Of a stretch of 60,000 nucleotides of DNA, positions 2,539-56,100 are shown piece by piece. The stretch is from NCBI GenBank assembly GCA_013265495.1, contig MU057560.1, forward strand, positions 3,224,909 through 3,284,908. Reading direction: 5' to 3'. Source of the stretch: Vicugna vicugna (Eukaryota). The translations under genes were made by a program, and so were the position numbers. The number at the start of each line of letters is the position of its first letter. Position 1 is the stretch's first letter. The notes under the pieces were generated by a model that saw nothing but the letters and a program-made list of their open reading frames with translations, searched no databases and was not told the origin of the DNA.

Positions 2539-2625
2539 CTAATGGGAGCTTCAGAAATGCCGGTGCTTCCCTGAGATACTCAACAGTGACGGTCACTTGT
2601 CTCCAGAATTCCTCAAAAGACGCAC
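2539..2625 (-). pseudogene. SNTG2: SNTG2 exon 7 (end of PDZ domain), with 1-nt deletion creating an immediate TGA
   Basis: Acceptor ttggcag, then GTG CGT CTT TTG AGG AAT TCT GGA GAC AAG TGA (VRLLRNSGDK*, stop at 2595-2593). VTVTVEYLREAPAFLKLPL continues in the shifted frame up to donor gtaagg. Length is 87 nt versus 88 expected. Confidence 0.9.
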
Positions 2626-3239
2626 CTGCCAACACGACAAAACACAGCCGCTTTACCATCACAAAGGGACCAGCGCAGAAATGGAAAAGCCCCTGCTCCC
2701 CTGGCCTGTCTCTCAAGAACTCAGCGCTCAGGGCGGGAAGCCCGTTAGCCTCACCTGGAGTAACAACACAGCGGCTGTGTCTCCGGCCACGGCCGCTGCG
2801 CCCCCCTGCACAAACGCTCACACACACCTGTGCACGCCGCGCGCCGCACCCGGCACGCGTCCTCGGGCTGTGGAGTCACTGCAGGGTGGACGCAGCCCTC
2901 ATGGCAGGTGCGGTGACTGGAGTTGTGTCCTGGCCCCCCAGACGCCCTTCTGCCTCCTCAGCCCCCGGAGCGAGGGGCGGGCCGGCCGGCGGTGAGCGCG
3001 TGCGGAGCCGGTGTGAGCTTGTGCGTCCATGTGTGAGCTCTGTGAGTGCGTGTGAGCATGTCTGTCCCCCACAAAATCCACATTCTCTCAAGAACACGGG
3101 GCACCCACAACAGTTGCTCAGGCACAAAGGGAGCCAGGAGCAAGCAGGGTGCAGGCGCTGGAGAGTTCGTCCTCTAAGCAAAGTGACAACGGCTCGTTAG
3201 ACAGGCCCTGGTCTGAGCAGCGAGGTCTCACGTTTCTGG

Positions 3240-4570
3240 CCATTAAGTACTTGGTCAGCCGCAGGTTCTGTAGACATCCTTCACTAAGCTGAGGAGAGCC
3301 CCCTCCCCTCGTAGTTCACTGAGACCTTTGGTCACGGGTGGGTGCTAGCTTTGCCAGATGACCTTCCTGCACCTGCTGGCATGATCGCGTGGCCTCTCTT
3401 CTCCGGCCTGTTGATGCGACGGTTCCGTTACTGACTGTCCAGGGCTCAGCCAGCCCGGCATGTTTGGGATGAGTCCCACTTGGTCATGATGTGCAATTCT
3501 TTTCGTACGCGGCTGGATTTGACTTGCTGGCATTTTGTTGAAGGTTTTCCATCTGTGTTCATGAGGCATACTGTTCTGCAGTTTTCTTCTCTGGTTTGGG
3601 GTTAGAACGGCCCGTGTACCGTACGGGGGGTTGGGAAGCACCCCTTCTGTTTTATTCTCTCAAAGAGACTGTGGAGATTGGTAGTGTCTTCCTCAAGCGT
3701 CTGGCAGAATCACCAGTGACCCACCTGGAGCTGGCGCTTTCTGTTTCGGAAGGTTATGGATCATTCATTCAATTTAGTAACAGATACAAGCCTATTCAAA
3801 CGATGTCTCTTCTTGTAGGAGGTGCGGCAAATTGTGTATTTCCAGGGGTCAGCCCATGTCACCCAGCTAATCAAATCTGTGGGCACAGAGCTCACAGCAT
3901 TCCTTTATCACCCGTTTAACGTCCACGGGATCTGCAGCGACGTCCCCTTCCTCATGTCCAACATCAGCAAACTGTGTCTTCTCACGGCTTTTCTAGCTAG
4001 TCTGGCTAGAATTTGTCGAATTTATTGATCTTTTAAAATAGCAAATTGCTGATTTCACTGATTTTCTCTACTGATTTATTTTCAATTTCTTTGGTCTCTG
4101 CTCTAATTTTTGTCACTTTTGTCCGCCTGTTCACTCTGGACTTCATGGCTCACTTTTTCTAACTTCCTTCTGAGGGCCGCTGTGACTGCAGCCCGCAAAG
4201 TCTGAGAAGCTGCGTTTGCTTTTGCATCTAGTTTAGAACATTTTTTAAACTTCTTCCAAGGTTTCCTCTGCCCCATGTGGTGGTCAGAGCCTCCGAGTGT
4301 CAGGGGCTCTCCAGCCCCCTCTCCACTACTGATCTCTAGTTGAATTCTGTTACGGCTGGACAGCAGATACTGCATGGCTTCTGTTTTTTCAAATTGGCTA
4401 AGATGCGGTTCACAGCCCAGAAAGTGGTCCATCTTGGTAAGCGCCCATGTGAGCTCGGGAAGAACGCGAGCTCCCTGTTGCTAGACGAGTTCATCTGTAG
4501 GTACTCATCGTGGCCAGCTGACCACGGCTTGGCTGAGTTCAACTGTGTCCTTACTGGTTTTCCTGCCTGC
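3240..4570 (-). mobile_element. Ancient degenerate L1 ORF2 fragment (endonuclease to RT region)
   Basis: Minus-strand translations FNKMPASQIQPRTKRIAHHDQVGLIPNMPGW (L1 RT: [30 protein letters not shown]), DHFLG..LSQFEKTEAMQYLLSSRNRIQLEIS (L1 EN: DHILG..LNKFKKIEII..SDHNGIKLEIN) and FFPSSHG. Confidence 0.85.
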
Positions 4571-7500: not shown

Positions 7501-8671
7501 ACAACAAAAACGTTCAGTTTAGGAAGTGAAGAGGTGAGAGCGGGTCACCTACCCAAAGGTAACCGAGACCACAAGTCGCTCGACACCAAGAAACACTTCA
7601 TCTCACCCCTCTGCCTGGCGGGCACGAAGTTCGTCCTTCCCTCAGTGACGAGTCACTAACACACTGTGTGCTGGTTTGATGGAAAGTCCGTGTCCCGCAG
7701 ACCAGATATGTTTGGTGTCCAGGCTGCCCGCCCTCATTTGGAAGTGATGTTGGCTCAGTGGAAAATAAACAGCGATGAAGGGCGCACAACTGACCGCATG
7801 CAGAGCTGCCCCTCCCCTGAGACGCTGGCACACTGACATCCTGCTGGGCTTCACCACACCAGGCAGAACAGGCCACCTTGTGAGGGACCCCGACCGCCTG
7901 CCCTGCAGGGTCCTGGGCTCCCCCCCACCTCGGCCCGTCCCCCATCCCTCAGCCTCCCCACGCTCCAGGGCCCGCTCTGGCCGGCCTTCTTCTCTCCCCA
8001 TCTCGCTCTCCAAGGTCCGGCTCAATCACCATCCACATCAATGCTGTCCCCGCCCAACGGAACACGCGTCCCTGTCCCCACGACCCCAGTCCCGTGCATC
8101 GGGGCACGTGGCCGTACACATGGATTCACCACAGGGCTTCCTGTGCCTGATTAAGGCTTCGGCATGGATGTTCCCTGCACCCTTCCCGGCAGTGTGGACC
8201 CGACCCCTCCACAGGAGTAATGCCGGGTGGAGGCCCTGTGACCCCCGTCCCTGGGCCAGCACTGAGGCTAAGTGCTGGAGACGTCCTCCCAGACAGACGG
8301 ACGGACGTGCACACAGGGCCCAAGGAGCCGCGCGGGGGCCCCTCACTGGCTCCACTCAGGCCGCCCAGGGCCCCACCCCCTAAATTTCAGCTCTCCTGTC
8401 TTTAAAATAGAAGCCACCAAACCCACCCTCTACAGTGTCTGCGAAGACCTGTCGCCTGTGGATGTGACAGCACAAGGGCTCACGACCCGGAGGGCACTGC
8501 ACAAAGGCCTCTTGGAAACATGACTTTTACGTCTAAGCTTTTCTTCCCGGTTCTAAAACTCTGTGTCTGCGACACACTCAGTGAAATACACTTTTAAGGG
8601 AAAAATCATCAGAGTAAGAGAAAAGCTAATAAAAAGAAAAAACAGCAACATCTAAAGTCTAATACACTCAC

Positions 8672-8713
8672 CACTTCTTCGTGGGTTGCATTTCCCACAT
8701 GAATGCCATTAAC
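8672..8713 (-). CDS. SNTG2: SNTG2 exon 6 (PDZ), open
   Basis: Acceptor tcttttcag, then VNGIHVGNATHEEV, then donor gtgagt; 42 nt, separated from exon 5 by a 97-nt intron. Confidence 0.94.
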
Positions 8714-8810
8714 CTGAAAAGATGACGAATTAAGAATTTTGAGGAAAAGAACTGAATTAGTGTAAAACTGAAGTGTAACACAGTTAAGCACTGGGGTTTA
8801 AAATACGGAC

Positions 8811-8854
8811 CTGCAGAACGGCGTCCCCCACAAACAGCATGCCCGTCCGGTCAG
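8811..8854 (-). CDS. SNTG2: SNTG2 exon 5 (PDZ), open
   Basis: Acceptor cacccgcag, then (A)DRTGMLFVGDAVLQ, then donor gtccgt; 44 nt. Confidence 0.93.
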
Positions 8855-8947
8855 CTGCGGGTGTAGAAGTGGCAGCAGCGTCAAGAGAGGCTCGGAGACA
8901 TCACGCGTCAGGGCAGTGGCCTCAGCTCAGCGTCTGCAGCAACCGGC

Positions 8948-9135
8948 AGTGTGTGTGTACACGTGTGTACGTGTGTGTGCACGCAGGTCACGTGGGCAAG
9001 TTTGTGTGTATGTGCGTGTATGTGTGCACTGCGACGTGTGAGTCCGTGTGCACACGTGTGCATGTGGGTGAGTCCATGTGCATGTGCAGATGTGTGGTGT
9101 GTGAGTGTGCGTGTGTGCGGGTGTGTGTACCCGGG
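8948..9135. repeat. Degenerate (TG/CA)-rich alternating purine-pyrimidine tract
   Basis: Runs such as gtgtgtgtacacgtgtgtacgtgtgtgtgcacgc, just upstream of exon 5. Confidence 0.8.
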
Positions 9136-10369: not shown

Positions 10370-10432
10370 CCTCTGTCTCCGTCTCCGTCTCTGTCTCTCT
10401 GTCTCCATCTCTCCTCCTCTCTCTCATCTCTG
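10370..10432. repeat. Pyrimidine-rich (CTCCGT/CTCTGT/CT) simple repeat
   Basis: ctctgtctccgtctccgtctctgtctctctgtctccatctctcc. Confidence 0.7.
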
Positions 10433-13400
10433 TCATTAAATAAAAGTTAATTAAAAAGACTATCCAATTAAATCTTTGAAATGCTTTCCATTTGATGGGC
10501 TTTTAGTCCTAAAGAAACAAATTAAAAAGCGGTGAAATGGATGATAAAATAAAACCATGGAAGTTTAAGTTTAATTTAAAATTTTAATTAACGTTCCTGA
10601 ATAAAATAAACTCTTTGGTCAGAATATACTAGGCTTGTGGGTTTTGGCTGAAAAGCGATTCTAGTTTATTTCTGTGGTGATTCTGCCGTTACGCTGGGAT
10701 GGAAAATGGAAAAACAGCATAATGCAGTTTAACCCGTATAAATATTCAAAGGTGCAGACTAGCTACAATGGGCTAATATTTTCTATTTCTGTTACACTTT
10801 CCTTCTCAAGGCAAACTAATTGCTATTACCCATATCTGAGGTGATGTAAATTTAATCATTGTTGGCAATACAATGGTTTTGTAACAAATAATTTGCTCTT
10901 TTTGCAACTTTAGTCTTTGCAAAATTCAGACATAAATATTGATGAATAAAACCTCTGGGTAATAGCGTAAAAGGGTAATATTTCTTAAAAGTCTTCCCGT
11001 TTGAGCACTGAACTTCATTATCTGGACTAACAATGACTAAAACTAGCCTTTCCTGCGCGTCAGACCCTCCTCGCGGTCCACTTTGCGCTCTGACTCTGGA
11101 ACCACTTGACCACCCGTGTGGGGCACGGCTGTCCCCGGGTGGGCGGGTCCCCTGTGGGGACGTGGGCCTGTGGTTTGACAGGAAAGCCACACAGAAGAAC
11201 TAAGTTCAAAGACTGTGGACAGAGGCAAGGAACGCGCATTCTCGGTGTGAACCCCACACCTGCACGAAGATGGGCACTGACTCCAGCGAAACCCCACCGC
11301 AGCAGCCTTCCTGGAAAGGCACAAAGTCCCGTTGCCAGTGGCGGTCGTGGCAGCCCTCTGCTGTGGACGGCACGGCTGGTGACCGGCACTGGGAACACGG
11401 GCGAGGCACCCTGAGGGACAAGCACCCCTGTCTGTGGGGCAGGTGGGCAGCAGGTGCACACGGCGTCCCACAGGAGCAGAGGATGCAGGCGGCAGGACAC
11501 CCTCCTGAGAACGGCCTCGCCCAGGGCCCAGTGCTCGTGAGGCCAGCCGGGCTCCAAGCCCACAGCGCAGCACATGGCCCACTCGAGTGGTCCTGAGACG
11601 GCTCGTCTGGGGCAGCACCTACCCCACCAGGTGCTGGCATGCTCCCTGTGGTGCCATTAACTGCCCCACCTTCCCTCTTCTGGCTGGTCAGCAGTGGGTT
11701 CTGGGCGTCCCTGGCATCCTCCAGGGACGAGTCAGGACCCCTGAGCACCAGCACAGCCTGGACGGGCAGAGGCTGCTGGTCAGAGCCCAGCCCAGGGCCG
11801 AGCTCCGGAGCAGATGGTCTCAGAAAGGGAAGGCGAGACCAGAGACGGCCAGGAGACCGTGGAGGAGTGGGAGGAGAGGCAGGCTCCGCCCTGAGACTTG
11901 CTGTGCCGAGCTTCCTGTGGTGCCTCCCAGCAGCTGGAGAGGAGGCTCTGCTTCGGGAGAGAGTGTGTTGGCACGTCTGGACTCCGGTTGGAGGACTGGA
12001 CGCCCCTGTTACTCCTGAGGACACCCACCTGGCCGGCCACCCCAGACGCGGGCGCACCTCCCAGCTCACGAGGGGCGGCCTGGTCACCCTCTGCAGATAA
12101 AGCTGGTTCTCATCCTGAACTGGGCATAACATCCTTCTCTGATTTTTGTCGTCTCCCTTCATCCCAGTCTTTTCGGAAACTGATATTCACACCCACACAT
12201 TAAAAACTTCACTTAGAAAAAGAACTGAGAATGTTCACGAAGACCACAGGAGCCGAAAAGGACTGGAGCACCTTCCTTCAGTTACTGACCAGCCAGCCCG
12301 ATGGGTGACGGTGGCGCACGAGGCTCCGAACACTCCGAGCTCAACGAGGAGCCGAGTCCTTCCCCCTCACAGAAACTGCCTCAGACGGACTCAGCTCTGC
12401 AGCTCTTCCACTTCACAACTACAGCGCTGGCTTGTACAGCAGAAGGGCGTTCGCCCAAGGGAATCATAATGTTTTGTCAAAGTGCTTTAAAAACCTCGAA
12501 AAATAATGGTCATTTGAGTCAGAGCCTTGTGCCCTATGGTTACAGTTAGAACTGTATTTTCTTACAAAGCAAACGGCAGGGGAAGGACCAGGCTCCTTCC
12601 GAGCCTGCGGCTGGGGTGGGTCCCCGTGGAAGCCCCTCTGGCTCTGTCCCCTCAACCCCCAATAAGTGCGATCTGTCTGCTGCAAACGTTAAAGGCAGGT
12701 GCTGTGACTTCGCTCAGAAAGGGAAAATACCGTATCACGCTGAGTCCTGAATTCCATCCTTTTGGTACCAAAGAGTCTTTACACGCATGCAGATTTTGTT
12801 ACAATGCCTCTTTCCCCCACGAATGAATTCAGAGCACTGTGGGGAGTTCACATCCCCTGGGAACCGTCTTTGCAGGAAAATGTGACCCCCCAGGTCTGAG
12901 GTAGGCGTGATGCCCGAGGGCACGCCGTGCAGACGCCCCAGATACCAGGTTCCGAGCTGAAGCACGAACTGACTCTGCAGTTCCCACTGAACCTGCACGT
13001 CTCGGGGGCCGGTGTGTCCATCCGGGAGGCCCACAGTCTCTGCCCCAGGACTGGTTGGCAGGGCGCACCCCTTCCTGATTCAGGCCTCCCTCTGGACGCT
13101 GCACAGTTTCAGGCTCGGGGCGCGCTGCCCTCCGCCAGTTTTGGGAGCACCATCACCTGAGCCACAGGTCCCACTGACAGGGAGTAGCTGGCAGGACAGG
13201 GAGCCGAGGGTCCTGGTGGGAGTGGACCTCCCTACCCGCCACTAGCAATGTGACACTGTCAGAAAGCCTCCACTTCTACGGGAAACGAGCAGCCCCACAC
13301 AGGGAGGACCCCGTCCTCACTCTCCCGTCTACACACAGCGGCCTCGGGAAAGGGCAGCGGCTCCCAGGGCCAGCGGCCCATCTTGTCAGCAACGCCTGCC

Positions 13401-13723
13401 CCGCCGCACCCACCACGCCCGAGGCGCCCGCCGTCGCAGGTTTTTACCTCCAAGCCCTCGCGATCACCATGGACCCTCCATCCGCACTGACCTCCCTCAG
13501 TGGTTTGCCGTTCCTGAGAAACCCAGGGCTGGGACCACTGGCGTGCCCATGTGTCCCGGTGGCGGGGGGAGACGAGGGCCGGGTGGTCGGCTGAGACAGC
13601 AAGCGCCTGCAAAACCGCAGCAGTGCAGACAACCAGGCGAAGCCAACAGCTCGTTTCTCACCTAAAAGCACACACCACCTTCCAAACTGCTGCAACGCAT
13701 GCCAGCTGCCGCGCCGCTGTCAC

Positions 13724-13781
13724 CTGCGTGGTCTTTCAATATTTTCGATATGACGACAGGGACTCTGTGCGCCAAGCCTCC
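13724..13781 (-). CDS. SNTG2: SNTG2 exon 4 (PDZ), open
   Basis: Acceptor tcttccag, then GGLAHRVPVVISKILKDHA plus one G, then donor gtgaca; 58 nt, separated from exon 3 by an 81-nt intron. Confidence 0.93.
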
Positions 13782-13862
13782 CTGGAAGACAGGCAGCGGG
13801 AGTGCAGGTCAGGTCAGCACAGGGCCAGCGCAGGAAAGGAGCGTGGGGCCACCCGCTCACAC

Positions 13863-13919
13863 CTTTACGCTCAGGCCCAAGCCGCCCCCGGGCTGTCGGC
13901 GAAGTGTAACCGTTCTGTG
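13863..13919 (-). CDS. SNTG2: SNTG2 exon 3 (start of PDZ domain, carboxylate-binding GLGL loop), open
   Basis: Acceptor ttttaaag, then HRTVTLRRQPGGGLGLSVK, then donor gtgtga; 57 nt. Confidence 0.93.
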
Positions 13920-16900
13920 CTTTAAAACACTTAGGAAGAAAAAGAACAGTCTATGTTAGAATGCACAGTCAGAAAGGGAGTACAAAATGCACAAGCAGCT
14001 TCCGCGTGAAACGCGAGGAACTGTTTATAACGTATTTCCAGAGTCACCCCAGTCACAACACCATCTCCAGTCCAGCCCCTGCCGTGACACGGACGCGGAC
14101 ACGGACAGAATCAGCCCTGTTCTGCGCGTGATTTAAAAGCCACACAGAACTCCGGCAGGCGGGCGCTCTTCCCCTCACCGTCCCTGGGAGTCGAAGCACC
14201 ATGAGGGGAACACTGGCCGTTTCCCGGGGGGCAGACAGTGAGGCCGCAGAGCACACCCTGACCTGTCCCTAACGTCTGTTCTCCCTGCAAAACCGGCTCC
14301 CTCTGCACCGCCCTCCTCCGTGCAGCTCAGTCACTCTTAGGCCAGGTTTCAGGTGATCAGTGTGAACTCTCGAGTGATCAGTTATTCCACGTCCGGATCC
14401 AGTTTAAAGGCGTCGGTGCTGATGAGAAGCCAGATTTCCCCTTGCCCTTGGTGGGGGGTGACTGGCTGGGCACCGTCCCGTCTCGTACACGTTCCATCAC
14501 GTGACGGACTGTGTTTTGGTCTAAACTGCCTGACTGTTAGCTGTGGGGCTGAGAGGGCGAGACCAGGGAGGCCTGGACCAGCTGAAGCGGCTGCAGCGAG
14601 CGTGCTCACCGGAGGGACCATCGGAACGACGGGAGCGCCCAGCATCGCTGGGATGAGCGAGCGCAGAGGTGAGCGCTTTCAGACGCCAAAGAGTGCGTGT
14701 GTGCAAAGCCCGCAAAGAGAGACCCCGGCCGGGGAAGAGCGGGGTGTCCCGAGGGGCCCCGCGGGGGACGCGCCCACTGCCGGCGAGAAAGGACCCGGAA
14801 GCCGTACGGCCACCTGTCACTTACTTACACGCTTTTATTTTTATCATTTTAACTTCTCATATTTATTTATTTATATTTATTATTTTATTATTTAAAATCC
14901 ACTTGTAATTTTAGTCTTTGGAGTGAATATATTATAACCTTAAAGACACCAAAAATTAGAGCAAATAAACCTCTTGTAGGGTGTACGTGGGACACATTCG
15001 ACTATTCTGAGCTCTTCAGCACATGCAACGCTTTGAACTGATGAAATACTTTCACAGTCAAATGTGGGAAGAGCTGTACTTCAGGACTTTGGTTTCAGAG
15101 AAACCGTTTCGCCTTTTCCCTCGTCCTGGACTGGGTTCCCAGTGAGGGAGGTGGGGGCAGCAGTGACACTCGTGCGACAGGGACACCGTGGTGACTTCCA
15201 GGCCGTGTTCTAAGTGCACGTCTGAAACGCCGGGAGCACCTTCACCTGCACAGAGTCCGACGCAGCAGAAGCAGGCGTGAGGCTCGGTCCCCGGCAGGTC
15301 CCCAAGTGCGACACGGGAGCTGACTCTCCAGGTCAGCGAGCATCTCCCGAGTGTGACCAGCAGCGTGGGGACACTCGCTCCCTCTGTTCTGCCCTCGGCC
15401 CTGAGGTCCCCCTGCGCTCAGGCTCGGCTGGGGCGGGATAAGCCCACGTGCAACACATCGGCCCTGAGCTTCCAGCAGAGACCTTCTGAGCGTCGGGAGG
15501 TGGGAAAGCTGGGTCGTCCAGAACATCGACCAGGAGGCTGCGGAGCTCCTCAAAACAGTCGATGATGCTTTCCACTTTTCCCACTGGGATAAGCAGCAGA
15601 ACCCACTGAGAGCAGGAGAGTACGCGTCAGGGGAAACGTGTTTGAGAAGGAGCAGGTGGGTCCTGCCTCCAAAGAGCTCCCCAAATAACGACCTTTCGAC
15701 TGTGTCATTTTGTTCCCACGGGGACCTTAGGAAGACAATGCAAAGGAAACACCAAGAAATGGTCAACGAAGCCAAGTTCTAAGATTCCTAACAGGGGAGG
15801 GAAGGAATTCGTGTCATAACCCTCTTTAACTCGGAGCACCTGCCACCCAGGGTCCCGGCTCAGCCAGAGTCCTGGCCACTCAGATGCCCACTCCACGCGG
15901 TCTGCCGCAGTGCCCCTCCTGAGCACACGTGGCCCCCCATGTGAGCCTCGCTCAGCAAAGCTGCATGTGTCCACATCAGACACTGCAACTGGGGCTTAAT
16001 GCGAACTTCCCATCTGTTACAGCTGCAAGCTGAGGCTCAGATCAGAACATTGCAGTGTCCAGAGATGGGCTTCAGCCGGTTACAAAGATAAAACTGGCCC
16101 TTGTGAGGGATGCCACCAGGCCTGCTGTCCCCCTCCCCGGCCCAGGGCACCTTCACCCACACCCCCGGTCACTGGTGAGTCCACACTCCAGCCTCGCCCC
16201 ACCCCGGCCCCCCCGACATCACCGCCGGGACCACCTGCTACCAAGAGCCAGCAGGCTTTCATGACACACGTGGCGGAAGAGCCCGAAAGAGGGATTGTTA
16301 ATGTTAGCAATTTAGGAGAATTTTCTGAGGATTTTAGTTCTCACACACACACAAAACCTTCTCAATTTTTTTCAGAAAACAGATGTTAGTGGATTTTGAT
16401 GTTGGGGAGGGTGTGGGAGGAGGGTGTCAGGCCCCAGATCCACGACGGGAGCAAACACCCTGGAAGGGTCTTGCAGGTCGGGGTCCAGGTCTCTCTTTCC
16501 TCTCTTCCTAAAGCTTCGACACCAATGACTCCAAAGAAAAAGACCCAGGACCCAGAGTCAATTTATGGTGTGAATACATGTGTAGAAATCAATTTTCAGA
16601 AACTGAAAACAAATGGGTTTTCAATTCAGGTCTTGGGAAAAATGGAAAAAATTCAGAAATAAATGTCTGCCAACAAATAGATACTAAGAATGGGAAAAAG
16701 ACAATGGTGAGGAAGTACGTCCAGGGAGTTCAGAAGGGCTGTTTTGTTACAAAGTTACTTGCAGTTTGGGCTGCAGGATAAAGTATCTGGTGGGAAATCA
16801 GGAAATACAGCAACAAAGATTACAGACAAGAGTAAAATCGTTCTTTAAGTTAAATACTAAATTACAGGTGGTACCTACTTCTGATCTATAAACCCAAAGA

Positions 16901-19900
16901 ACAGAAAGCAAAAGGGTGCTCCAGAAAGCACGTCGAACGAGGCGGAGAGAAGTAGAAACAGTGCGTTGATTTTATAACAAAAGAGCGATGACAGGATTGT
17001 GCTGCGTGTCGCACGCAGAACTGATCAGAAACTGCCGCGTCCTTGGCCAGTGTCACGGCAACCACGTCGCCTGTCGTGGAGACCGTAATCCAAGCTTAAC
17101 TCCTTCATCCGAACTAACATTAAAATCTGTTGACATTTTTCACAGGGCATGTTGTGTAAATCATAAACCTAACTTTTTTTTAATGATTTTAACCAGTTCG
17201 GTGGACCATTGTGACGGCCCTGGGACCACCTGCAATGCCTCTCTTCGGCCCTGTGGCGGCCAGTTAGCGCGTCACAGAGGTTGCTCAGTGGTCTTACTGA
17301 GCTGAGCACCTTTCACAATGCACCTGTCTCTGCACTGGGTAACTCGCCCCTCAGTCACTCGCTCGCACAGCTGCAAAGAGACAGGCGGGAAACCCAGGAA
17401 GCCAGGCCCGGACGTGAAGGGCACGCGGTCCCGGGCGGGGGAGCCCGTGTGCCTGGATCTAGGCATCCCCGACGGGACACGTTGACGGGGAAGGGAGGGC
17501 CGACAGCTGTGGCGTCGGGTGGATGCAGAGCTAAAATACGCGGGCCCGATTCTACCTTCTACCGTCAGGCCACAGATGTGTGCTGTTAGCCCGACACCCC
17601 TTCCCCGGGGAGGACTGGACTCTGACAGGACACAGAACCCCCAGAGAGGAGGGGCCCGCACACCCCCTACAAACCGGGCGCGCGTTTCAGGCAGGGAAGT
17701 GGGCGTCTCTCCCTCCAGGGGTCCCCTGGGGCCCGAGACACAGACTGACGTCCTTCACCAGTGAGGAGCCCACTGCCCCCTGAGCCCCTCCGCTTCTGTC
17801 TCCACGGCCCCAGCAGCACCCGCGCCGCCCTGCGGGCCTCCGACCTGCTCTTCTCTATTTGCCGACCCTGGTGCTCCCCCACCGCCCCGCCGCGGGTCCC
17901 TCAGCCCCTGGCGCTCCCCCCGGCCCCGCGGGCCCCTCAGACCAGCCTCACTGTTTGATGGCCGAAGCCTTCTTTCTGACAGACATGCTGTTTAGCTCGC
18001 ACCCCGAGACTGCTCTCCTTCCCTGCTCTTGTCCTCTCTGGTTGGTTCCACGCCTACTGGGTCGCCGTGCACGGCCCTCCCTCCCGGCCGCACTGGCAGG
18101 GCCTCTCTCGTGTCTTCAGACGTAGTGAACACGTGCACCGTGTGGCGCCGGACCCCCAGGTCGGGGGTCTTTGCGGGCCCACGTCCCCACTCTCTCCTCT
18201 CTGCGTCCCTGCCCCGTCCTCTTCCCCGTGGCTTCCTCTCCACAGGCCCCCGGGAACCTGCCCTGGGGAGTCACCTCAGACCCGAATGTGAAGGGTGCTC
18301 CTGCAGAAGGGACACACCGCTTCCCCCTGCGCGGACCGGGGCCCCCAGACCTGGCAGCCCTACAGCCTCCTTTATCCGTGTGGGGCTTTCATGGCACAGG
18401 GACCGGTGAATCCCAGCCGCAGACCCAAAGCAGGGCGGGCGGGGGTGAGGGTCCCTCTTCCTTCTGGAGCCAGTGCCAGGTGGGGAGGACTCTTCCCTCC
18501 CACGGGGCGGGCTTTGTTTTCAGGTCCACACACCGCAGCCGTGACCCCGGGCTCTCCTCCTCCAGGCAGGGAGGGGGCCGGTCTATCCTCCCTCTGGCGT
18601 CCCCCCCGGCTGTCTCCTGGTGTCCACACTGAACCCCCCATCAGGTCACGCTGGGGGCACACCAGGCTCGGGGACTGGCCCTCCCAGAGCTCACACGACT
18701 TCCGCGTCACTGAGCCTCCCCAGCGTCGCTGGCGCTTGTGTCTCTGGGAACATCCCGCACGTCTCTGGGCCTGTGCTGTCTTGGGAACCCAACACGCAGC
18801 ACCCGCCGGGTCACAAACTAGCCGAGGAGCTGCTGAGATGCTGCCCCGATTCTGTAATCAGCTCCGTGAGCTCAGACAACAACTTCCTTCCCCACGAATC
18901 CCAACTTCCCAAACAGGAAAGTGAGGGTGTGGAATCTCCCAGATATATTCCAGCCACAAATGTGCCGTGACTCGAAGTGCCAGATACAACAGAGATCCTG
19001 GAACGTGTTCCTTCAGCGGAATGTGTTTAGATGTAACTTCCTCACCACATTCATTTAAAACACAAATGTAAACGTAGAGTTTAGAAAATTAAACTGTGTC
19101 AAGTGTACAGCGACAGCTACAAAAATAAAGCAATCCAAGCACAAACTGAAACAGAACAAGCGAGCTCTTCCACGCTGCAAGGCGCACACTCTCTTAGGAG
19201 GGAGTCAGCAAACCCAGAGGCTGTGAGTCTTCAAAGTGCCATGTTGATGTCAGGAAAGAGGAACATAAATGCAGTGCAGACTCTTAGATTCCAAGTTCGG
19301 AGGCTGGATCAGCAGAGTTAAGAATATGTCGGTTTTACTAAAGAGCAGATTTAGTTTTACATTAGCTCTTCCCCTCCTGGATGAAGAACAACACCCACCC
19401 TTAACTGACACCACACTTACTTCCTTCCCAGTAGGTTCAAGGAAACAAAATACAAGTCTGCGCAACCGTGTCTTCCCAGACAATCAGCACGTAAGCGCAG
19501 CCCAAGGTGTAGGGTTCCGTGTGAACTTTGTGTTAAGCTTCAAGAGAACCAAACTCCTCCAGGCTCACTTCTGAGTAAGTGCTGAGTCAAAGGAGTGTTG
19601 ACTTTGAAGTGAGCAGGGACCTCCCACTGAGAAGAGCCCGAAATGTGAGAATCAATCATCAGTAGTACCTCCCATTAAGAAAACTGATCTTGAAAATCAA
19701 AACACCAGCGTGAGCCGTCCACAGACTCAGTGGCGGCATCTGAGCTCACGGGGCCTGACAAACGAGGCGCTTGCTCTAAGACGCTGACCCGGTCTCGGGG
19801 TCCCCGTGACCAGCCGCCTTCTGCTGGACTTTCCCATCTACAGTGCAGACTCCGCGACCCGGCTGAACTGACTCCGACGACAAGTTTTCATCTCCCGGGA

Positions 19901-21471
19901 GCCACACAGGAACTCGAGGTTGGTGAGCTGTAAATTCACACTCATTTCTTCCGCTGATCCACTGTGGAATCGTTGCATCTTCCTTTCCTGCTCTTCAGAA
20001 AAATTTTAAATGGAAAATAATTGTCCTCAACCAGGTTCTCTGGTGGAAGTTAACATGGAAACATCCAGCTGTGAACATACTGAGAGTCGAGGCTCTGGTG
20101 TCCCTCAGAGGGGTTCTGACTCTAAAAACAGCCCTGACTTTTGCTAAAAGGAGTCTTTCTTATCCTCCAAACACACGATAAATTCTCATGTCAAGGTTAG
20201 TTTTATTTTTATAATCAGCTGAAGAGCACGGGGTTTCAGCTGCAACTCAAACCAATGGGATTGAATCCAACGTGAGTCTGTAACTGGGAGAGATTCTGAT
20301 CTCAGCAACTGACTATGTTCATCTAGGCGCGGAAACGTCCTCTGAACGCCCCTCCCAACTGTGCAGCCCAGATATGCGTGTTTACTCAAGCACATGTCCA
20401 CCACTTTCCTAGAACAGAGGGCTTCCTGGGGATCCAGCAGAGAGCAGTAAGGAGGGGCGGAGACTGGGTACAAAGCCCGTGAACCCCGTGTCCCCACCCA
20501 CACCCTTATTTTAGGGCAGGAAACACTAACATCAAGCTTCAGGCTTCGATAATCACTTGAAAATGAAAACATGCATTTATGGGTCTGAATATACACCCAT
20601 TTCTCTTAAGAAGGAATCTATAATTTTCATCAGGAACTTAACCTTGGGCAGAAAATCTGACACTGAATAGAATTTAAAAGTGTAGGTTATTTTTCCTGGA
20701 CAAAATAGCCTAGAAACATTGTGTGTTTTTACTATAACTTGTCTGAGATTTTCTAGAGATTACAAATTCACTATTAAGAAGGGTCATTTTTTTCAAGTGG
20801 TTAGAGTGGTCCCATGGCTCCCTCCCCAGCCCCACCCCATGGCATCCAGAGCCGCTGCAGGGAAATGAGCAAAGGAATGGACACTGCCAGGACCACGCAA
20901 AGATGGGACGAGACCTCTCCACTTTCAGAAAGAAAGCAGACATCGGGGTGTTAGCAGGGTCTTCTCGGGGCTAGTGGAGCGCAAGGGGGTCTGCAGGGTG
21001 CAGAGATTCCCCAGGGTGGGGTACACAGGATATGAGTCTGCAGCTCTCCAGAGGATGGCAGGAAGGACTGCCTCCTGGTCTGGCCTCATAGGTCCTGGAC
21101 CCACGGGGGCACCCTCCCCAGATGCAGCAGCCAGACCCAGACCCGGGAAGGCAGACCTACGACACGGGAGGGAGGGTGGACCTGGGTCAGGGCAGATGGA
21201 GGAGGATTTCAGGTGGAGACGTGAGTTTTGAGAGTCACGAGAGCCTGTGTGGACATATGGCAGGCTCAGGCCTCCCCAGCAAGGTCACGGCATTGCATCT
21301 CACGAGGAAATGCCGAGTGCGGGACCACAGCCCCGGAGGAGGTGCCAGTCCGGCTCACCTCCAGCACAAAGGCCACAGGACTCAGAAACCACCCACCGCA
21401 GGTGTCCCCAGAGCCCGTGCCACTGCGAACTGGGGATGGAAGTGCTTCGGGGATACTTTAAAAAACACTCT

Positions 21472-21585
21472 GGGGGAGGGGATGGCGTGTGCTCAGCAGG
21501 CACGAGGTCCCGGGTTCAATCCCCAGCGCCTGCATCAAAAATAAATAAATAAACCAAATTACCTCCCAACAAAACACACAAAAGG
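21472..21585 (+). mobile_element. tRNA-derived SINE, Vic-1-like (camelid)
   Basis: ggggaggg head, ..gcacgaggtcccgggttcaatcccc with B box GGTTCAATCCC at 21513-21523, aaataaataaataaa linker, aattacctccc tail motif and A-rich end. Confidence 0.75.
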
Positions 21586-22397
21586 AAAGTCCTCTCCTCT
21601 ACACGGTTTCTTGCTCGTCAGGTTTTGCAGCCGATGGGGGGTGTAGTCAAAGGGGAGAGGAACGACCCGAGCTGATGACGCGCAGAGACTCGTCAGCAAG
21701 ATGCACGTCTATATCCACGGCTGCGAAACCTCCTGGAAGGATGTGGGAAGCGGAACACGGCTTCAGATACAGTATGTTGTGTGTTTAACACATCGTCGGC
21801 GGGAGGCCCAGGTAAACTCTGAGCTGAGACCCTTCACCCTAATCTTCATTCAGTATTCTAGCGCATCTAACACAAAAGCTTCCTACTGTTAAGGACATTT
21901 CATCTGTAAGTCTGCAGCCGAGAAGGACCGAGCTTCACCTGGAGATCCTGATCTGTACCCACGGATGCAGGGACACGGTCGATAACCTGACACTGAAAAA
22001 CGCCTGCCTGAGCTTGCGCTGCAAGTCGTTCTGGACAGAAACCCTCGGGTTACTACTCTGTCAGGGAGTAGACTGTCACACCACTGCCTTCTAGCTTCCA
22101 ATGAAACTATGCCCAACCTGACTGCAGTGTTCGGGGGTGTTTTTAATGTGCAGCTCCCCAAGGAAAATACATTCATAAAACGTCAGGGAGAGCGCAAGTG
22201 ATACGATGCTGACAATGACAGGCTGCTCTGCGACAACGAAGGCCAGCGGTGGGACCTCTAGGTTCGGCGGAGGACCGAGTCCGGCAGGTCCCGCAGGACC
22301 ACCCGTGGGCGGCTCTGCCTGGGGAGACCCTCTGGGCTCATCGGGGTGGGACGGTCTGGGACAAACCCCTGGGGCCTGCAGACGCGGGAGCACTGAC

Positions 22398-22533
22398 GTT
22401 CGCACTGTGGGTGCTGCCACTGACACAGGACGTCTTGCTTTTGAACTGTCAGTACCTCTTCCGTCAGCTTCAGCCGGACGTCGTAGGCGTGTCCAGACCC
22501 TGGGTCGCACAGCAGTGCGGTCCCGGTTTTGGT
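22398..22533 (-). pseudogene. SNTG2: SNTG2 exon 2 (N-terminal split-PH segment), with 2-nt deletion
   Basis: Acceptor ctgtctccgcag, then TKTGTALLCDPGSGHAYDVRLKLTEEVLTVQKQDV. The tail VSGSTHSAN is in a shifted frame. Donor gtcagt. Length is 136 nt versus 138 expected. Confidence 0.88.
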
Positions 22534-22714
22534 CTGCGGAGACAGTGGGGTCGGGGCAGTGAGGCCAGGGGAGCCTAGAGCTCGCCCGCACGGCCAGCAC
22601 CGACGGCTGGGCCGTCCGCACTCGGCTGCCGAGGGCCTGCCCAGCGTAACGCACAGCAGTGGAATCTTTACTGTGTCTTCCCGAGTTGTCTTCAGAGAAT
22701 TGGGTGTAAAACTT

Positions 22715-35960: not shown

Positions 35961-35984
35961 TGATTATACTTGTCAAAACTGATA

Positions 35985-36300: not shown

Positions 36301-36550
36301 CTGAATCCGGCCTCACTGCCCTTCCTCAGGCCGTCTGCACAGGACCTGCAGCTTCAAAGCCCGTCTCCTCCGGGCTCCCGTAGTACACCCAGGCCCTTCG
36401 TACTGAGTGTCCACCCATGCTCTGCCCACAGCACTGTCCCCACTCAGACACGCCTTCCCGGCCGGGCGGGTGTACTCTCCCGGGAGACAGAGACCGCGTT
36501 TTCTACAGCTTGTGCACTTTCTGAAGCATCTGGTGCAGTTTTAAGTAAAT

Positions 36551-51543: not shown

Positions 51544-51595
51544 NNNNNNNNNNNNNNNNNNNNNNNNNNNNNNNNNNNNNNNNNNNNNNNNNNNN
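51544..51595. other. Assembly gap (52 N)
   Basis: Run of N flanked by G-rich gggggcagc-type sequence. Confidence 0.99.
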
Positions 51596-54500
51596 GGGGG
51601 CAGCAGGGTTGGGCAGTGTGGGGGGCAGCGTGGGGGAGACGCTGGTCACAAAAGCAGGGAGGGTCCTGCTCAGACAGAAACGCCAGGGACCAGCCGGCCT
51701 CCTGTGCCTCAGAGGAACTTCGGTGTGGCCTGGGGAAAGTGACATCTAGTGTTGGCTGAAAACAACCCCAACTATCTCCAAAATGACAATCTGGATGAAA
51801 ACAGGCACTAAGCATCTGGACAGTAAGGAAGAGCACATGCCAGTTTAAATGCAAATACATTTTTTCTACGAAATTCTCATTCATTTTTCCTCCAAAAGCA
51901 TTTTTTTTACTCTGCCTTGGTTTATCCCCCAAAACACATGCAGATTCTAATTAGCAAGTTTCTGAGGGTGTTGGAATCAGCTTCAGAGTGACTTCAGAAC
52001 CCAAACCACACAGTCAGCAGGTGAGGCCGTGAAGACAGGGGACTCCTGGCTCCTGGTCCAGGTGAAGCGTCCAGTCCTGGACTGGGCCCGGCCATGACCA
52101 CCCGAGTCCACCTGCCCTGGTGCATCTGCACCGTGCAGGACACGCAGGGGCCAGGAGGGTGGAAGGGACCTGGCGTGCCCGTCTTACTGGGTCTTCCTGA
52201 GGGGCAGGTGAGCCAGGATATCACACTGCTTCCAAATTCTAGAGCGAGCGCACCCACTCAGCAGACGGAGCTGGATACAAAATCTCTCACGGGGCTCACC
52301 TCCCTCCACCCTCCACTGAGCTGAGTATAAAGCAGCTCAGTGTCTCCACATGTCACTCGTCCCTGTGGCCTGATGCGCGTCACTCTGCCCTCCTGCCAGC
52401 TGCCTCGAAGTGTGTCTCCTGGGCCGTCTTGGAAAATGGAACTAAAGTCGACATTTAAAAAGCTGTATTTATATTTACATGTCTACACAGATGTGTCAAC
52501 GTAAAAGGTCGTGGTTCTACCCATGTTATTTGGTGAAACGAGGCAATTTTTACATCTGATATTTTCCATAAATAAGCATGCTTTTCTAACTTGGATCTTA
52601 TTAAACTGTTCATTAGGAAACATATCTCCTGGTCAAATCAGGGGATTCCCCATTTGAAAGATATGAATCTTGCTTTGGGGTCACGGACATCATCAAAAGT
52701 TCTACACCTGAGATCAGAGACGAGTCAGCAAGGACGAGGCACATAACAGAAGTGTAAAAGCAACGGACAGCCTCCCCACGGGGTTCCTGCCTAACTCGTG
52801 CAGGGGTTCGCATCTCTCACCGGGTGAGTAAGTGCTTCCATTCCTAGACGCACATTCTAAACGGCCTGCCGTGGTCGCACCTTTCTGTCCCCCGGCTCCT
52901 CAGGGGGACTCACACATGGCTGGCTCTCCCCTGCTTCCAGCCCCTCAGACTGAAGCAGTGTTGCTGATTAAAAACAGAAGATGTGTGTTCATCACAAATC
53001 CACAGCAGTGTTTGAACCCAAAGCAGGGCACACTCAGCACACCATACTGGTGGTTCTCCAGCCGGGGTCCACTGTGGGACACAGGGAGGGTCAGGGATAA
53101 GGGTGTGAACTGGCTCAACTCAGGAAGCTTGTGTAGCAGAGAGCAGCTACCTAAAGCCAAGGAGGAAAAAGCAGCTCCAGCGCTGAACAGGCGACGTTCA
53201 AATCTGGCCAAATTCTGATTTAAACAAGCAGCCACAAAGAGCACGTTGTGTTTCTGACTTCAAAAAACGTTTACAACCAGAAATATAGTGGGTTTAAACC
53301 AACTTGCTTTGTTGTCATCATTTTTCTACTTAGAAGCACTAAGTTCTCCTTCTTCACCGAAATGATTAAATAACTTTGCAATTCAATGATATTACGGATA
53401 GTTACTGATAAGAAAATCAGTAAATCTGCATGGTTGTCTAGTCTGCAGTGATTCAAGTACAAACGAATGGCTGTTAAAGATTCACGGAGCAAAGGTGGAC
53501 ATGCCACTTTGCAGCAAACGTGCCAGCCATGACTGTGTGCGATGAACGGTCCTGTTTTAAAAAGACATGTGTAAACAGAACATTCAGCAAATTCATTTTA
53601 AATGAGCAGAACCTGAACCTTTCCGCAGGCTGGAGCACACGCAGAACGTGTCTTCTATTCGTGAAAGCAGAGGGACCCTCCTGCTCTTGCCTGCTCTGTC
53701 ATAATGCTGACATCGGTTCCCTGCCAGTGCAAGTCACATAGGTCGCATGGGAGAACCCAGGCCCTTATTATAAAGGGAGCACTAATTACATCCTCAGTAA
53801 ATAGGATGGAGCCCCTTGTCTGAGCCCCGAATTCAGTGTCTTAAAGGAGCCAACACTTAGCAGCCTGGAGAGAACTTATTTCAGGATCTCAGGTGACACG
53901 CTTTTGAAAACCTGAAGTTATTGCCCATACCCCTCAGCTGGGTCAAGCATGCAGTACGATGAACCCACTTGTTTGCTCCTCTATGATCACCGCGGTTGTA
54001 AACAAGCCGGCTGTGGGACTACCGCAAGGAGATGTGCAGCTCCCACCCAGGGAGCATCACTGTGAACTCAAGGCAGTGACGAAGCAGAGCGCCCCTGACT
54101 CCCAGCCGCTCTCCTCGCTCAAGCAGCTCACTTCCAGTTATTCCAAGCCCATCTGGTGGTTTAATTTCCAGTAGCTGGAAAACTGCTCCATGACAAAGAA
54201 TGTAAAACACTCAACACAGAACTTCACGTGAAATTTAATTTCAAGATTTCGCAGTAACGTCTCAGAATGATATAGCTTGGTGGAAGAGGCAACTATCTCT
54301 ACATATATATTTTTAAAAGAAAAACATACAAGAATTACTGCCTGGTTTAGAGGCATTCTGACATGAGAATTTATAAAAGTCTTCAATCCACAGTCTGCTG
54401 AAACATTTGTCAGCTGTCCTGAGATGCACAGCTATATACGTGCCGGGTTTTTGGTCACTCCTGAGATCAGGGGCTCTGCAGGGACAAACCCTACAGAAGG

Positions 54501-54799
54501 CGGTTATGGGAGCACGCGGATTAGCCTATTAGCCCAGAGCCTCCCGGGCTCAGGATCCTTAAATTGTTTCCAGAACACTCGGTTATGCTGTGGGTGGCAA
54601 CTCGAAGGTTTCCAAGAACTTTTCGTTTTTGTCTGAGCCACATTTCTGTTTTCCCCCGGTAGTTCAGTTATTTAAAAATAAGAGGGTGGAGGGGGAGTCT
54701 TTTGGGATAGGGGTAGAATAGATGTCACGCACAGGCTCTGTATTAAGAATTCGGTGCTGAGAGCTGAGCTGTCCCCTGAGTTGCTGGGCACTCGGCTAG

Positions 54800-56100
54800 G
54801 GCCCTCAGAATCGGGCAGAGGCCCCCAGGCCGAAGCGGCGCCAGCGACCCCGACGCGCGCCCATCCAGGGGCTCGCCTCCGCTGGACCCTGGGCTCCGAA
54901 GATGCACACAGGAAGATATGAGGAGTGAATCCCCAATCCCCAGTTCTGGAAAACCGGGTTCCCACGGCCACAGAACCCAAGTACCTGCCCAGCCAGCCTT
55001 CAAGACAGGGAGAAGGCAAAGCCCACAGTTTCCATCTGGGATACTGGGGTTGGGGGACTGAGTGGTCAGGGGGCGAAAGCCCACTGTGCCCGGGGTCCTG
55101 GCGCCCGTCAGCCTGCACGAGCCCCCGGGGAGACAGGGATGGGGACGCCGGAAGGAAGGGGGAGCCGGGTGAGGAGGGGGCGTCGGGAAGGAAGGCGGAG
55201 GCGCAGAGGGGAAGGGGGCACGGGGTGAGGAGAGGGCGCGGGGAGGGAAAGGGGGCTCGGAGGGAAGGAAGGGGCGTTGGGGGAGAAAGGGACGCAGAGG
55301 GGAAGGCAGCGCGCGGAGGGAAGAAGGGGGCCGCGGGGGGGGCGCCGAGAACGAACGGCCGCGGGGGGCCGGCACTCACCCGCGCGGGCACCAGCAGGCG
55401 GCCGGGGTCGGGGCTCCCTCGGCGCTCATCGCCCCCAACTCGGCGGGGCCCGCACTCCGGGCCGGGGGCGCTCAGCGCCGGGGCCCCTCGCGAGCAGCCA
55501 AGGGCCCCGTGGGCGCCGCGTCCGCGCCGCGCTCTGCTCGGGCTCCGCGGGCGGCGGCGGGAGGGGCCGAGCTCCGCGCCCCGCCCACTGGCCCCGCCCC
55601 GGCCCGCCCCCGGAGAGGAGGGGCTGCCCAGGGAGGGGACCGGCTGCAGGCGCGGGCGGGGCGCGGAGGCGCCGGGGGCGCGGGCGCGGAGGGGCTCCCA
55701 CCGGTGGGGCCGAGGCCCGGGCGCTCGGGGCCCAGCGGGAGGATGATAGGTTTGGGTGCTGAGGCTCCCTCGGGCGGGCGCCCCCTTCCCGCCCCTGCCC
55801 CCTGCTTGATCTGACTGGGGTCGACCCTTAGACCACAGCGTGGCGCCCCTGGGCCTTCCAGGCCCTCGGACGGTCGCCACCGCGCTGCTTTCCGGGTCCC
55901 TAGGGACCGCCCCCCTGCGACCTGCCCTTCACACGGGCGCTGACGCTGGACCCCGGGGACCTCCAGGACAGGAAAGCGCACAGAAGCCTAAATGCGCGCC
56001 CGCCCGCGCCCGGGCGTGGAGGCTCCGGGGGCGCCTCGGGGCGCACGGCTGGGCCTGACCCTGGCCTCGCACCCCAGACTGTGACTCGGGCACCAGCGCG
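54800..56100. promoter_or_regulatory. CpG-island promoter of SNTG2 with clustered GC boxes
   Basis: Very GC- and CpG-dense stretch spanning exon 1. Sp1-type GC boxes lie at about 55578-55586, 55591-55600 and 55602-55610, roughly 150-180 nt upstream of the ATG. Boundaries are approximate. Confidence 0.8.
55380..55429 (-). pseudogene. SNTG2: SNTG2 exon 1 coding part (ATG to donor), with 22-nt frameshifting deletion
   Basis: ATG at 55429-55427 reads MSAEGAPTPAA (human MGTEGPPPPAA). The conserved LLVPAR (CTG CTG GTG CCC GCG CGG) followed by donor gtgagt (55379-55374) is in a different frame. Length is 50 nt versus 72 expected. Confidence 0.85.

What the first reader, a model, noticed from the sequence alone, without database searches (positions are those of the whole stretch)
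2539..55429. SNTG2 (gamma-2-syntrophin) appears inactivated: three independent frameshifts in seven exons, a candidate lineage-specific gene loss
Seen in the sequence: exons 1, 2 and 7 are 50, 136 and 87 nt, and in each the conserved peptide switches frame inside the exon, while exons 3-6 and all GT-AG sites are intact. Splicing from the ATG gives a 37-aa peptide ending at TGA 22472-22470. With exon 1 repaired, the exon 2 lesion alone stops at TGA 8853-8851 at the start of exon 5. Re-initiation at the exon 5 Met gives only 34 aa before TGA 2595-2593. None of these routes produces a complete PDZ domain or the downstream PH/SU domains. Established knowledge: SNTG2 is a dystrophin-associated PDZ adaptor reported to bind Nav1.5 (SCN5A) and neuroligins. 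Inference: it is a unitary pseudogene in this probably camelid lineage. I do not know of a published description of this loss, but I cannot search.
Basis: partly seen in the sequence, partly recalled or inferred. Interest (0 to 1): 0.88.

Follow-up and report, generated by a model that had tools for sequence, protein, structure and literature searches.

The report
Dead SNTG2 gene in a camelid
The gene for the nerve and muscle scaffold protein gamma-2-syntrophin is broken in many places in this camelid genome and has drifted like junk DNA, so it is a real but fairly ordinary lineage-specific gene loss.

Summary
On the minus strand the window carries SNTG2 exons 1-7. Exons 1, 2 and 7 are 50, 136 and 87 nt, against 72, 138 and 88 nt implied by intact orthologues.

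The rest of the gene lies just outside the window on the same contig and adds four lesions. These are a 7-nt loss in exon 9, a frame change in exon 10, and lost splice donors at exon 12 (GA) and exon 15 (AT).

Assembly error is unlikely:
- The paralogue SNTG1 shows no frame break in 16 exons, and two neighbouring peroxidase genes show none.
- The read-through protein departs from 17 of 191 positions invariant in 24 mammals, the most of 25 sequences.
- Against two Camelus ferus gene models, true-frame exon residues are 167/187 identical and translated non-coding DNA 464/518. That leaves no sign of purifying selection.
- C. ferus lacks this genome's exon 2 and exon 10 lesions but shows its own frame changes in exons 12 and 14.

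Verdict: a unitary pseudogene, probably decaying in all camelids. I obtained no read-level check and found no published description. It is a new member of a known kind, of moderate interest.

The parts
55380..55429 (-). SNTG2 exon 1, 50 nt (72 expected). The ATG frame (MSAEGAPTP...) and the conserved frame (GRLLVPAR) differ; the frame junction is near 55403/55402 and amounts to a 22-nt shortfall.
22398..22533 (-). SNTG2 exon 2, 136 nt (138 expected). A 2-nt loss lies between 22423 and 22422 in a short TG run (CTGTGTC). The stop of the as-is reading is TGA 22472-22470.
   Evidence: The C. ferus model P0002 reads this exon in one frame (DVLCVSGSNHSAN).
13863..13919 (-). SNTG2 exon 3, 57 nt, intact (HRTVTLRRQPGGGLGLSVK).
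13724..13781 (-). SNTG2 exon 4, 58 nt, intact (GGLAHRVPVVISKILKDHA).
8811..8854 (-). SNTG2 exon 5, 44 nt, intact. TGA 8853-8851 is the stop reached when only the exon 2 lesion acts.
8672..8713 (-). SNTG2 exon 6, 42 nt, intact (VNGIHVGNATHEEV).
2539..2625 (-). SNTG2 exon 7, 87 nt (88 expected). A 1-nt loss lies between 2599 and 2598 and is followed by TGA 2595-2593. Exons 8-17 follow outside the window at contig C391:3221854-3165524.

Best explanation
This is the orthologous SNTG2 (gamma-2-syntrophin) locus of a camelid other than Camelus, and it is a unitary pseudogene.

Shown in the assembly:
- Frame-shifting deletions in exons 1 (-22 nt), 2 (-2), 7 (-1), 9 (-7) and 10 (net -2).
- Loss of the GT donor at the conserved ends of exon 12 (GA) and exon 15 (AT, with 9 nt missing).
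- Every route from the start codon therefore ends before a whole PDZ domain is made. The PH and C-terminal syntrophin domains cannot be joined on in frame.

Inferred: purifying selection had already gone by about the time this lineage and Camelus split. The exons have since changed as fast as the surrounding introns, and each lineage has gathered its own frameshifts. Camelids would then live without gamma-2-syntrophin, with the intact paralogue SNTG1 as a possible partial substitute (my inference, not tested).
For: 1. Lesions. The total is 1586 nt, against 1620 nt expected from the 539-aa orca protein. Of the 16 donors, 14 are GT, and all 16 acceptors are AG.

2. The lesions are not the usual polishing error. 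Three are multi-base losses (22, 7 and 2 nt) and two are base changes at donors.

3. Controls in the same assembly. SNTG1 on contig C719 tiles residues 9-526 of a 527-aa SNTG1-type protein, with each of 16 exons in one frame. On the same contig as SNTG2, 75 kb away, a peroxidase exon has a 592-codon open frame. A second peroxidase gene, 20 kb away, tiles Pfam PF03098 positions 7-530 exon by exon.

4. Relaxed constraint. The read-through protein (X at the breaks) departs at 17 of 191 positions invariant in 24 mammals. That is the highest of 25 sequences. The others range from 0/193 to 14/207, and a marsupial has 4/197. Its identity to orca is 0.77, where cattle-orca is 0.86.

5. Neutral rate against Camelus ferus. 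True-frame exon residues are 167/187 identical (0.893). Translated non-coding DNA in the same two gene models is 464/518 identical (0.896).

6. Independent decay in Camelus. C. ferus models P0002 and P0125 read exons 2 and 10 in one frame. They read the first part of exon 12 and of exon 14 in the wrong frame and the rest in the right one. This implies an indel in each exon of C. ferus relative to this genome, which keeps the conserved frame there.

7. Shared history. Of 48 invariant positions covered by both camelids, 3 carry the same derived residue in both.

8. No other copy. Apart from SNTG1, every match of 59% identity or more to orca SNTG2 lies in this one locus.

9. No camelid protein named gamma-2-syntrophin was among 28 hits to this genome's exon 14, nor among the best 120 of 623 hits to whale SNTG2. 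This is weak evidence.
Against: - No independent reads or second assembly of this lineage were examined, so each single lesion rests on one assembly.
- The read-through frame has no nonsense codon in 1620 nt, which is somewhat few for a very old pseudogene.
- Intact SNTG2 is not slow everywhere. Cattle-sheep identity is 484/535 (0.905) and human-capuchin 484/539 (0.898), so the 0.893 figure matters only next to the non-coding figure.
- The Camelus evidence comes from two old ab initio style protein models, not from DNA. The inferred C. ferus indels could be errors of that assembly.
- The two exon 10 losses lie in short G runs, a context where errors are commoner.
- GC-biased gene conversion in this GC-rich region (0.46-0.57) could speed up amino-acid change without loss of function. 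It would not explain the frameshifts.
Confidence: 0.88

Rival explanations
1. The gene is functional, and the frame breaks are sequencing or assembly errors in a GC-rich stretch near a chromosome end that is hard to sequence.
For: - The region is GC-rich.
- Exon 1 lies in a very GC-rich CpG-island-like stretch.
- The two exon 10 losses are in G runs.
- The window holds a 52-N gap at 51544-51595.
- No read-level check was obtained.
Against: - There are seven lesions of mixed kinds, including 22-nt and 7-nt losses and two donor substitutions.
- SNTG1 (16 exons) shows no frame break, and neither does a 592-codon exon 75 kb away on the same contig.
- Errors cannot produce 17/191 changes at invariant residues, or exon divergence equal to intron divergence.
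- A separate C. ferus assembly is also broken, at other sites.
Confidence: 0.04
2. The loss is confined to this (probably New World) camelid lineage, and Camelus keeps a working SNTG2.
For: C. ferus has exons 2 and 10 unbroken. No lesion has been shown to be shared by both lineages.
Against: - The C. ferus models imply frame-changing indels in exons 12 and 14, and they carry no Pfam domain.
- They leave out exons 3-7, 9, 13 and 15-17.
- Exon and non-coding divergence between the two lineages are equal, which is hard to reach if one lineage stayed constrained.
- Three of 48 invariant positions carry the same derived residue in both lineages.
Confidence: 0.07
3. A shortened or alternative product survives: an N-terminal peptide, an internally started C-terminal fragment, an exon-skipped isoform, or a regulatory RNA.
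For: - Ten of 17 exons are unbroken, and the terminal stop codon is at its conserved place.
- The read-through frame has no nonsense codon.
- Exon 12 has an in-frame GT donor 45 nt downstream.
Against: - Lesions are spread from exon 1 to exon 15, so no domain-sized block escapes. The PDZ domain (exons 3-7) is hit in exon 7. The PH region is hit in exons 9, 10 and 12. The C-terminal region is hit at the exon 15 donor.
- There is no sign of constraint on the exons.
Confidence: 0.03

Closest known systems
Intact SNTG2 (gamma-2-syntrophin) of other mammals, such as orca P0010, horse P0015, cattle P0029 and human P0045
   Same: It has the same 17-exon layout and phases, with expected exon lengths summing to 1620 nt. 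It shows 73-77% identity when read through. It lies beside peroxidase-family genes, as on human 2p25.3.
   Different: Here five exons are frame-shifted and two donors are lost. Seventeen of 191 otherwise invariant residues are changed.
SNTG1, the paralogue in the same genome (contig C719:1249533-1356638)
   Same: It belongs to the same family and has a matching exon structure.
   Different: SNTG1 is unbroken in all 16 exons detected. It serves here as the control and may partly substitute for SNTG2 (the substitution is my inference).
Published camelid pseudogenes, the ten genes reported inactivated in Old World camels, among them TAS2R16, CES3, CPA3, PLA2G2F and KRT24 (PMC12127551; passages read)
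   Same: They are the same kind of event: a conserved mammalian gene disabled by frameshifts or stops in a camelid lineage.
   Different: Those losses were chosen as absent from alpaca. SNTG2 is broken in this non-Camelus camelid and appears broken in C. ferus too, so that screen would not list it. SNTG2 does not occur in that paper's text or in its 6 held supplementary files.
Camelus ferus models CB1_001753004 (P0002) and CB1_001753002 (P0125)
   Same: They map in order onto this locus and hold exons 2, 8, 10, 11, 12 and 14 at 84-100% identity.
   Different: They are patchworks of SNTG2 exon remnants and translated intron, with no Pfam domain. They lack this genome's exon 2 and exon 10 lesions but imply their own in exons 12 and 14.

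Membership tests
SNTG2 orthologous locus | Best protein matches are gamma-2-syntrophins rather than other syntrophins | tested here: met
   Exon 2 and exon 14 translations hit proteins named gamma-2-syntrophin. SNTG1 is a separate locus on contig C719.
SNTG2 orthologous locus | Conserved multi-exon structure with introns (not a processed copy) and conserved neighbours | tested here: met
   Seventeen exons spread over 115 kb, all acceptors AG. Two peroxidase-family genes lie 20 and 75 kb beyond the 3' end. Human 2p25.3 holds SNTG2, TPO, PXDN and MYT1L (passages). The names TPO and PXDN for the camelid neighbours are inferred from position.
Functional syntrophin gene | Open reading frame through the PDZ, PH and C-terminal syntrophin domains | tested here: not met
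   The frame is broken in exons 1, 2, 7, 9 and 10. The longest product from the ATG is 37 aa.
Functional syntrophin gene | Canonical splice sites at all conserved junctions | tested here: not met
   The donor of exon 12 reads GA and that of exon 15 reads AT. The other 14 donors are GT.
Functional syntrophin gene | Purifying selection on the protein | tested here: not met
   Exon identity to C. ferus is 167/187, against 464/518 for translated non-coding DNA. There are 17/191 changes at invariant sites. This is a proxy; no codon-model test was possible without orthologous DNA.
Unitary pseudogene | No intact copy elsewhere in the genome | tested here: met
   A search of the 2.03-Gb assembly with orca SNTG2 found other matches only in SNTG1 or in PDZ proteins at 34-52% identity. 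Only the best candidates are scored, and the assembly has 12,405 contigs.
Unitary pseudogene | Lesions present in independent reads or individuals | not testable with these tools
Unitary pseudogene | No functional transcript or protein | not tested
   No RNA data were examined.

The most novel reading that the evidence does not exclude
SNTG2 was already disabled, or freed from selection, in the common ancestor of all living camelids. The whole family would then be a natural knockout of a neuroligin-binding, dystrophin-complex scaffold. I found no published note of this.
Probability: 0.55. Interest if true: 0.45.

Novelty: new member of a known kind. Interest (0 to 1): 0.4.

Why it matters
SNTG2 is described as a scaffold of the dystrophin complex that binds neuroligins 3 and 4X, and it is a recurrent copy-number candidate in autism (passages of PMC3276563). 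A mammal family that has done without it for millions of years would show the gene is dispensable in vivo. That bears on how human SNTG2 deletions are read, and it gives a natural system for asking what compensates, with SNTG1 the obvious candidate. It also marks the two Camelus ferus gene models at this locus as mis-annotations. It is still one more lineage-specific pseudogene. Automated gene-loss screens may already flag it without comment.

Tried and rejected
- **Read-level check.** One search for sequencing runs listed 19 runs of four coded organisms, from 8 studies, that hold 0.80-0.92 of the sampled words of window 12601-22600. No RNA holder was listed. The single read-laying run laid nothing and was counted, so no reads were seen. 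Word shares say nothing about single lesions.
- **Earlier notes of this scan.** Nothing on this genome, on SNTG2, or on look-alike stretches.
- **Metagenome contigs as a source of other camelid DNA.** A 32-nt exon 9 pattern found 0 stretches. A protein-guided scan with exon 14 matched 594 stretches, none confirmed.
- **Literature.** Full-text searches were run for SNTG2 with pseudogene (25 papers, 20 listed), with TOGA (2), with camel (3) and with alpaca (0). A six-term search on gene loss in camelids listed 20 papers, all with 0 occurrences of SNTG2. None of these described the loss (passages of PMC13115841 checked). The held supplementary files of PMC12127551 (6 files), PMC7498332 and PMC7671337 hold no SNTG2. 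Supplements not held as text, and public gene-loss tables, could not be seen.
- **Pfam on single exon translations.** Only exon 16 touched PF23012, at 22.8 bits, below the cut-off of 27. Exons 2, 14 and 17 gave nothing, being too short.
- **Hidden genes in the window.** Nine long open frames of 242-418 aa had no Pfam family, and no tRNA genes were found.
- **Rescue of exon 1 by an upstream start.** Rejected, because there is no in-frame ATG in the 184 open codons upstream.
Full report
**What is in the window.** The window is part of contig C391 (3224909-3284908) of a 2.03-Gb assembly in 12,405 contigs. tblastn with orca, horse, human and cattle gamma-2-syntrophin finds seven coding exons on the minus strand. 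I fixed their ends by splice dinucleotides. In window coordinates they are:
- exon 1: 55429-55380, 50 nt
- exon 2: 22533-22398, 136 nt
- exon 3: 13919-13863, 57 nt
- exon 4: 13781-13724, 58 nt
- exon 5: 8854-8811, 44 nt
- exon 6: 8713-8672, 42 nt
- exon 7: 2625-2539, 87 nt

All six acceptors are AG and all seven donors are GT.

- Exon 1: the ATG frame reads MSAEGAPTPAA..., and the conserved GRLLVPAR is one frame over. The exon is 22 nt short of the 72 nt implied by MSAEGPFPPAAPRGRSGRLLVPAR in orca. The conserved frame is open for 184 codons upstream but has no in-frame ATG, so no other start rescues it.
- Exon 2...QKQDVLC is followed one frame over by CVSGSTHSAN. The DNA reads CTGTGTC, two bases short in a small TG run, between 22423 and 22422.
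- Exon 7: VRLLRNSGDK runs into TGA 2595-2593. VTVTVEYLREAPAFLKLPLG follows in the next frame, which is a one-base loss between 2599 and 2598.

- 37 aa, then TGA 22472-22470.
- TGA 8853-8851 if exon 1 is put in frame.
- 34 aa from the exon 5 ATG, then TGA 2595-2593.

**The rest of the gene adds four more lesions.** The assembly could be searched, and exons 8-17 lie just beyond the window at C391:3221854-3165524.
- Exon 9 (121 nt, 128 expected) reads ...RWLDALSLPPS in one frame and (V)RISRCRAGAEGLR in another, a 7-nt loss where orthologues have SLPLSMARVSRC.
- Exon 10 (128 nt, 130 expected) changes frame between SGAFKVLAPD and GLLQFHTAQD.
- Exon 12 ends ...CCT CCT|GAAAGC, where the donor should be GT. 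The next GT donor is 45 nt downstream and in frame.
- Exon 15 ends TTC CCA AAG|ATGAGC, where orthologues have F-DSKTK followed by GT. Nine bases are missing and the donor reads AT.
- Exon 8 carries an in-frame 9-nt gain.
- Exons 3-6, 8, 11, 13, 14, 16 and 17 are unbroken, and the terminal stop is at its conserved place.

The 17 exons sum to 1586 nt, against 1620 nt for a 539-aa protein.

**Is this an artefact of the assembly?** I could not look at reads. Three controls speak against an error-ridden assembly.
- The paralogue SNTG1 on contig C719 tiles residues 9-526 of a 527-aa SNTG1-type protein, with each of 16 exons in a single frame.
- On the same contig as SNTG2, 75 kb from its 3' end, a peroxidase-family exon has an uninterrupted 592-codon frame covering Pfam PF03098 positions 1-440.
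- A second peroxidase gene, 20 kb away, tiles positions 7-530 exon by exon.

By position these two are the TPO and PXDN neighbours of human 2p25.3 (passages; the naming is my inference). In addition, the lesions include 22-nt and 7-nt losses and two base substitutions at donors, which are not typical consensus errors.

**Evidence of relaxed selection, independent of the indels.**
- I read the gene through in a script with N at each break. That gives 1620 nt with no in-frame stop. I aligned the product with 24 mammalian SNTG2 proteins, chosen from the listed hits as mammalian and 535-540 aa long.
- At positions where all 24 agree, the camelid differs at 17 of 191. Each of the 24, tested the same way against the other 23, gives 0/193 to 14/207, and a marsupial gives 4/197.
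- Identity to orca is 0.77, where cattle-orca is 0.86 and horse-orca is 0.84.

**Comparison with Camelus ferus.**
- Two old C. ferus gene models (P0002 of 216 aa, P0125 of 561 aa, no Pfam domains, both on one 137-kb contig) map in order onto this locus. They are patchworks of real SNTG2 exons and translated intron, which gives a built-in neutral yardstick.
- Residues in true SNTG2 frame are 167/187 identical between the two camelids (0.893). Translated non-coding DNA is 464/518 identical (0.896). Exon read in the wrong frame is 32/36 identical. Badly aligned tails, with local identity under 0.6, were dropped before counting.
- So the exons have diverged as fast as the introns.
- For scale, intact SNTG2 pairs give 0.905 (cattle-sheep), 0.941 (human-langur), 0.950 (sea lion-elephant seal) and 0.983 (manatee-dugong). 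The exon figure alone is therefore not decisive. Its equality with the non-coding figure is the point.
- About 10% amino-acid difference in translated non-coding DNA corresponds to roughly 5% per base. This genome is therefore a camelid but not a Camelus. Four coded organisms hold 0.80-0.92 of its sampled words, which fits a group of very close species.

**Independent decay in Camelus.**
- The C. ferus models read exon 2 (DVLCVSGSNHSAN) and exon 10 (SGAFKVLAPDGGSTGLLQCHTAQD) in one frame, so those two lesions are private to this genome's lineage.
- Conversely, P0125 reads the first part of exon 12 (GCAHGVGQREAGWGRLLSDLQTQV) and of exon 14 (SGFWTTAGHQLPS) in the wrong frame, and then continues in the right one (LALKGSSFHVFVAPP; LGSGGPDGQDHGPYCFS...).
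- That needs an indel in C. ferus in each exon, at places where this genome keeps the conserved frame.
- The models leave out exons 3-7, 9, 13 and 15-17. This fits shared damage there but does not prove it.
- Of 48 invariant positions covered in both camelids, 3 carry the same derived residue in both (S to P in exon 8, L to P in exon 10, E to G in exon 14). One is changed in C. ferus only, and none in this genome only. This hints that relaxation began before the split.

**Other copies and annotation.**
- The genome search with orca SNTG2 gave 19 matches. Those at 59% identity or more are in this locus, apart from one SNTG1 exon. The rest are SNTG1 or PDZ domains at 34-52% identity.
- No protein named gamma-2-syntrophin from any camelid was among the 28 hits to this genome's exon 14, nor among the best 120 of 623 hits to a whale SNTG2. 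Cattle, sheep, hippo, whales and horses were all there.
- This is weak evidence, because I do not know how complete the collection is for camelids.

**Mechanism and rivals.**
- The best reading is a unitary pseudogene. No PDZ, PH or C-terminal syntrophin domain can be made, and the locus has drifted neutrally since about the time the two camelid lineages split (confidence 0.88 that the gene is truly dead in this lineage).
- Whether one ancestral lesion killed it in the stem camelid (my estimate 0.55), or selection was relaxed first and each lineage then broke it on its own, cannot be told without Camelus DNA.
- Assembly error (0.04), a loss confined to this lineage (0.07) and a surviving short product (0.03) are the rivals.
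- Points against my reading are the lack of any read-level check, the absence of nonsense codons in the read-through frame, the reliance on protein models for Camelus, and the chance that GC-biased gene conversion adds to the fast protein change.

**Novelty.**
- Five full-text searches pairing SNTG2 with pseudogene, TOGA, camel or alpaca, or placing it among gene-loss and camelid terms, found no description of this loss. Nor did the held supplements of three gene-loss papers.
- Public gene-loss tables and RefSeq pseudogene labels were not available here and may already flag it.
- I rate it a new member of a known kind, of moderate interest.

Noticed in passing
window 51544-51595: A run of 52 N (an assembly gap) lies in intron 1 of SNTG2. 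It touches no exon.
   Followed up: no
contig C391:3221854-3221754 (exon 8) and 3175999-3175916 (exon 15), outside the window: Exon 8 has an in-frame 9-nt gain (PDAGGSG where orthologues have P---GSG). Exon 15 has an in-frame 9-nt loss beside its lost donor.
   Followed up: partly
contig C391:3201466-3201421 (just past exon 12), outside the window: The sequence after the GA at the conserved donor position runs 45 nt in frame to a second ...CCT CCT|GTAAGA. It looks like a partial repeat of the exon end, and its origin is unexplained.
   Followed up: no
Camelus ferus proteins P0002 and P0125, mapped on C391:3260393-3181643: Both deposited 'hypothetical proteins' are chimeras of SNTG2 exon remnants and translated intron, and are likely mis-annotations of a pseudogene.
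   Followed up: partly
contig C391:3089752-3091137 (+) and 3136490-3146552 (-): Two peroxidase-family genes, by position PXDN-like and TPO-like, lie next to SNTG2 and look unbroken. Conserved gene order with human 2p25.3 is kept.
   Followed up: partly
window 54672-55928 (-), 11206-12186 (-) and seven other long open frames: Stop-free frames of 242-418 aa in GC-rich DNA have no Pfam family. They look like chance open frames.
   Followed up: yes
ortholog set: The wolverine (Gulo) SNTG2 model departs at 14/207 invariant positions and two bat models at 8/201 each. This is either annotation error or fast evolution in those lineages.
   Followed up: no
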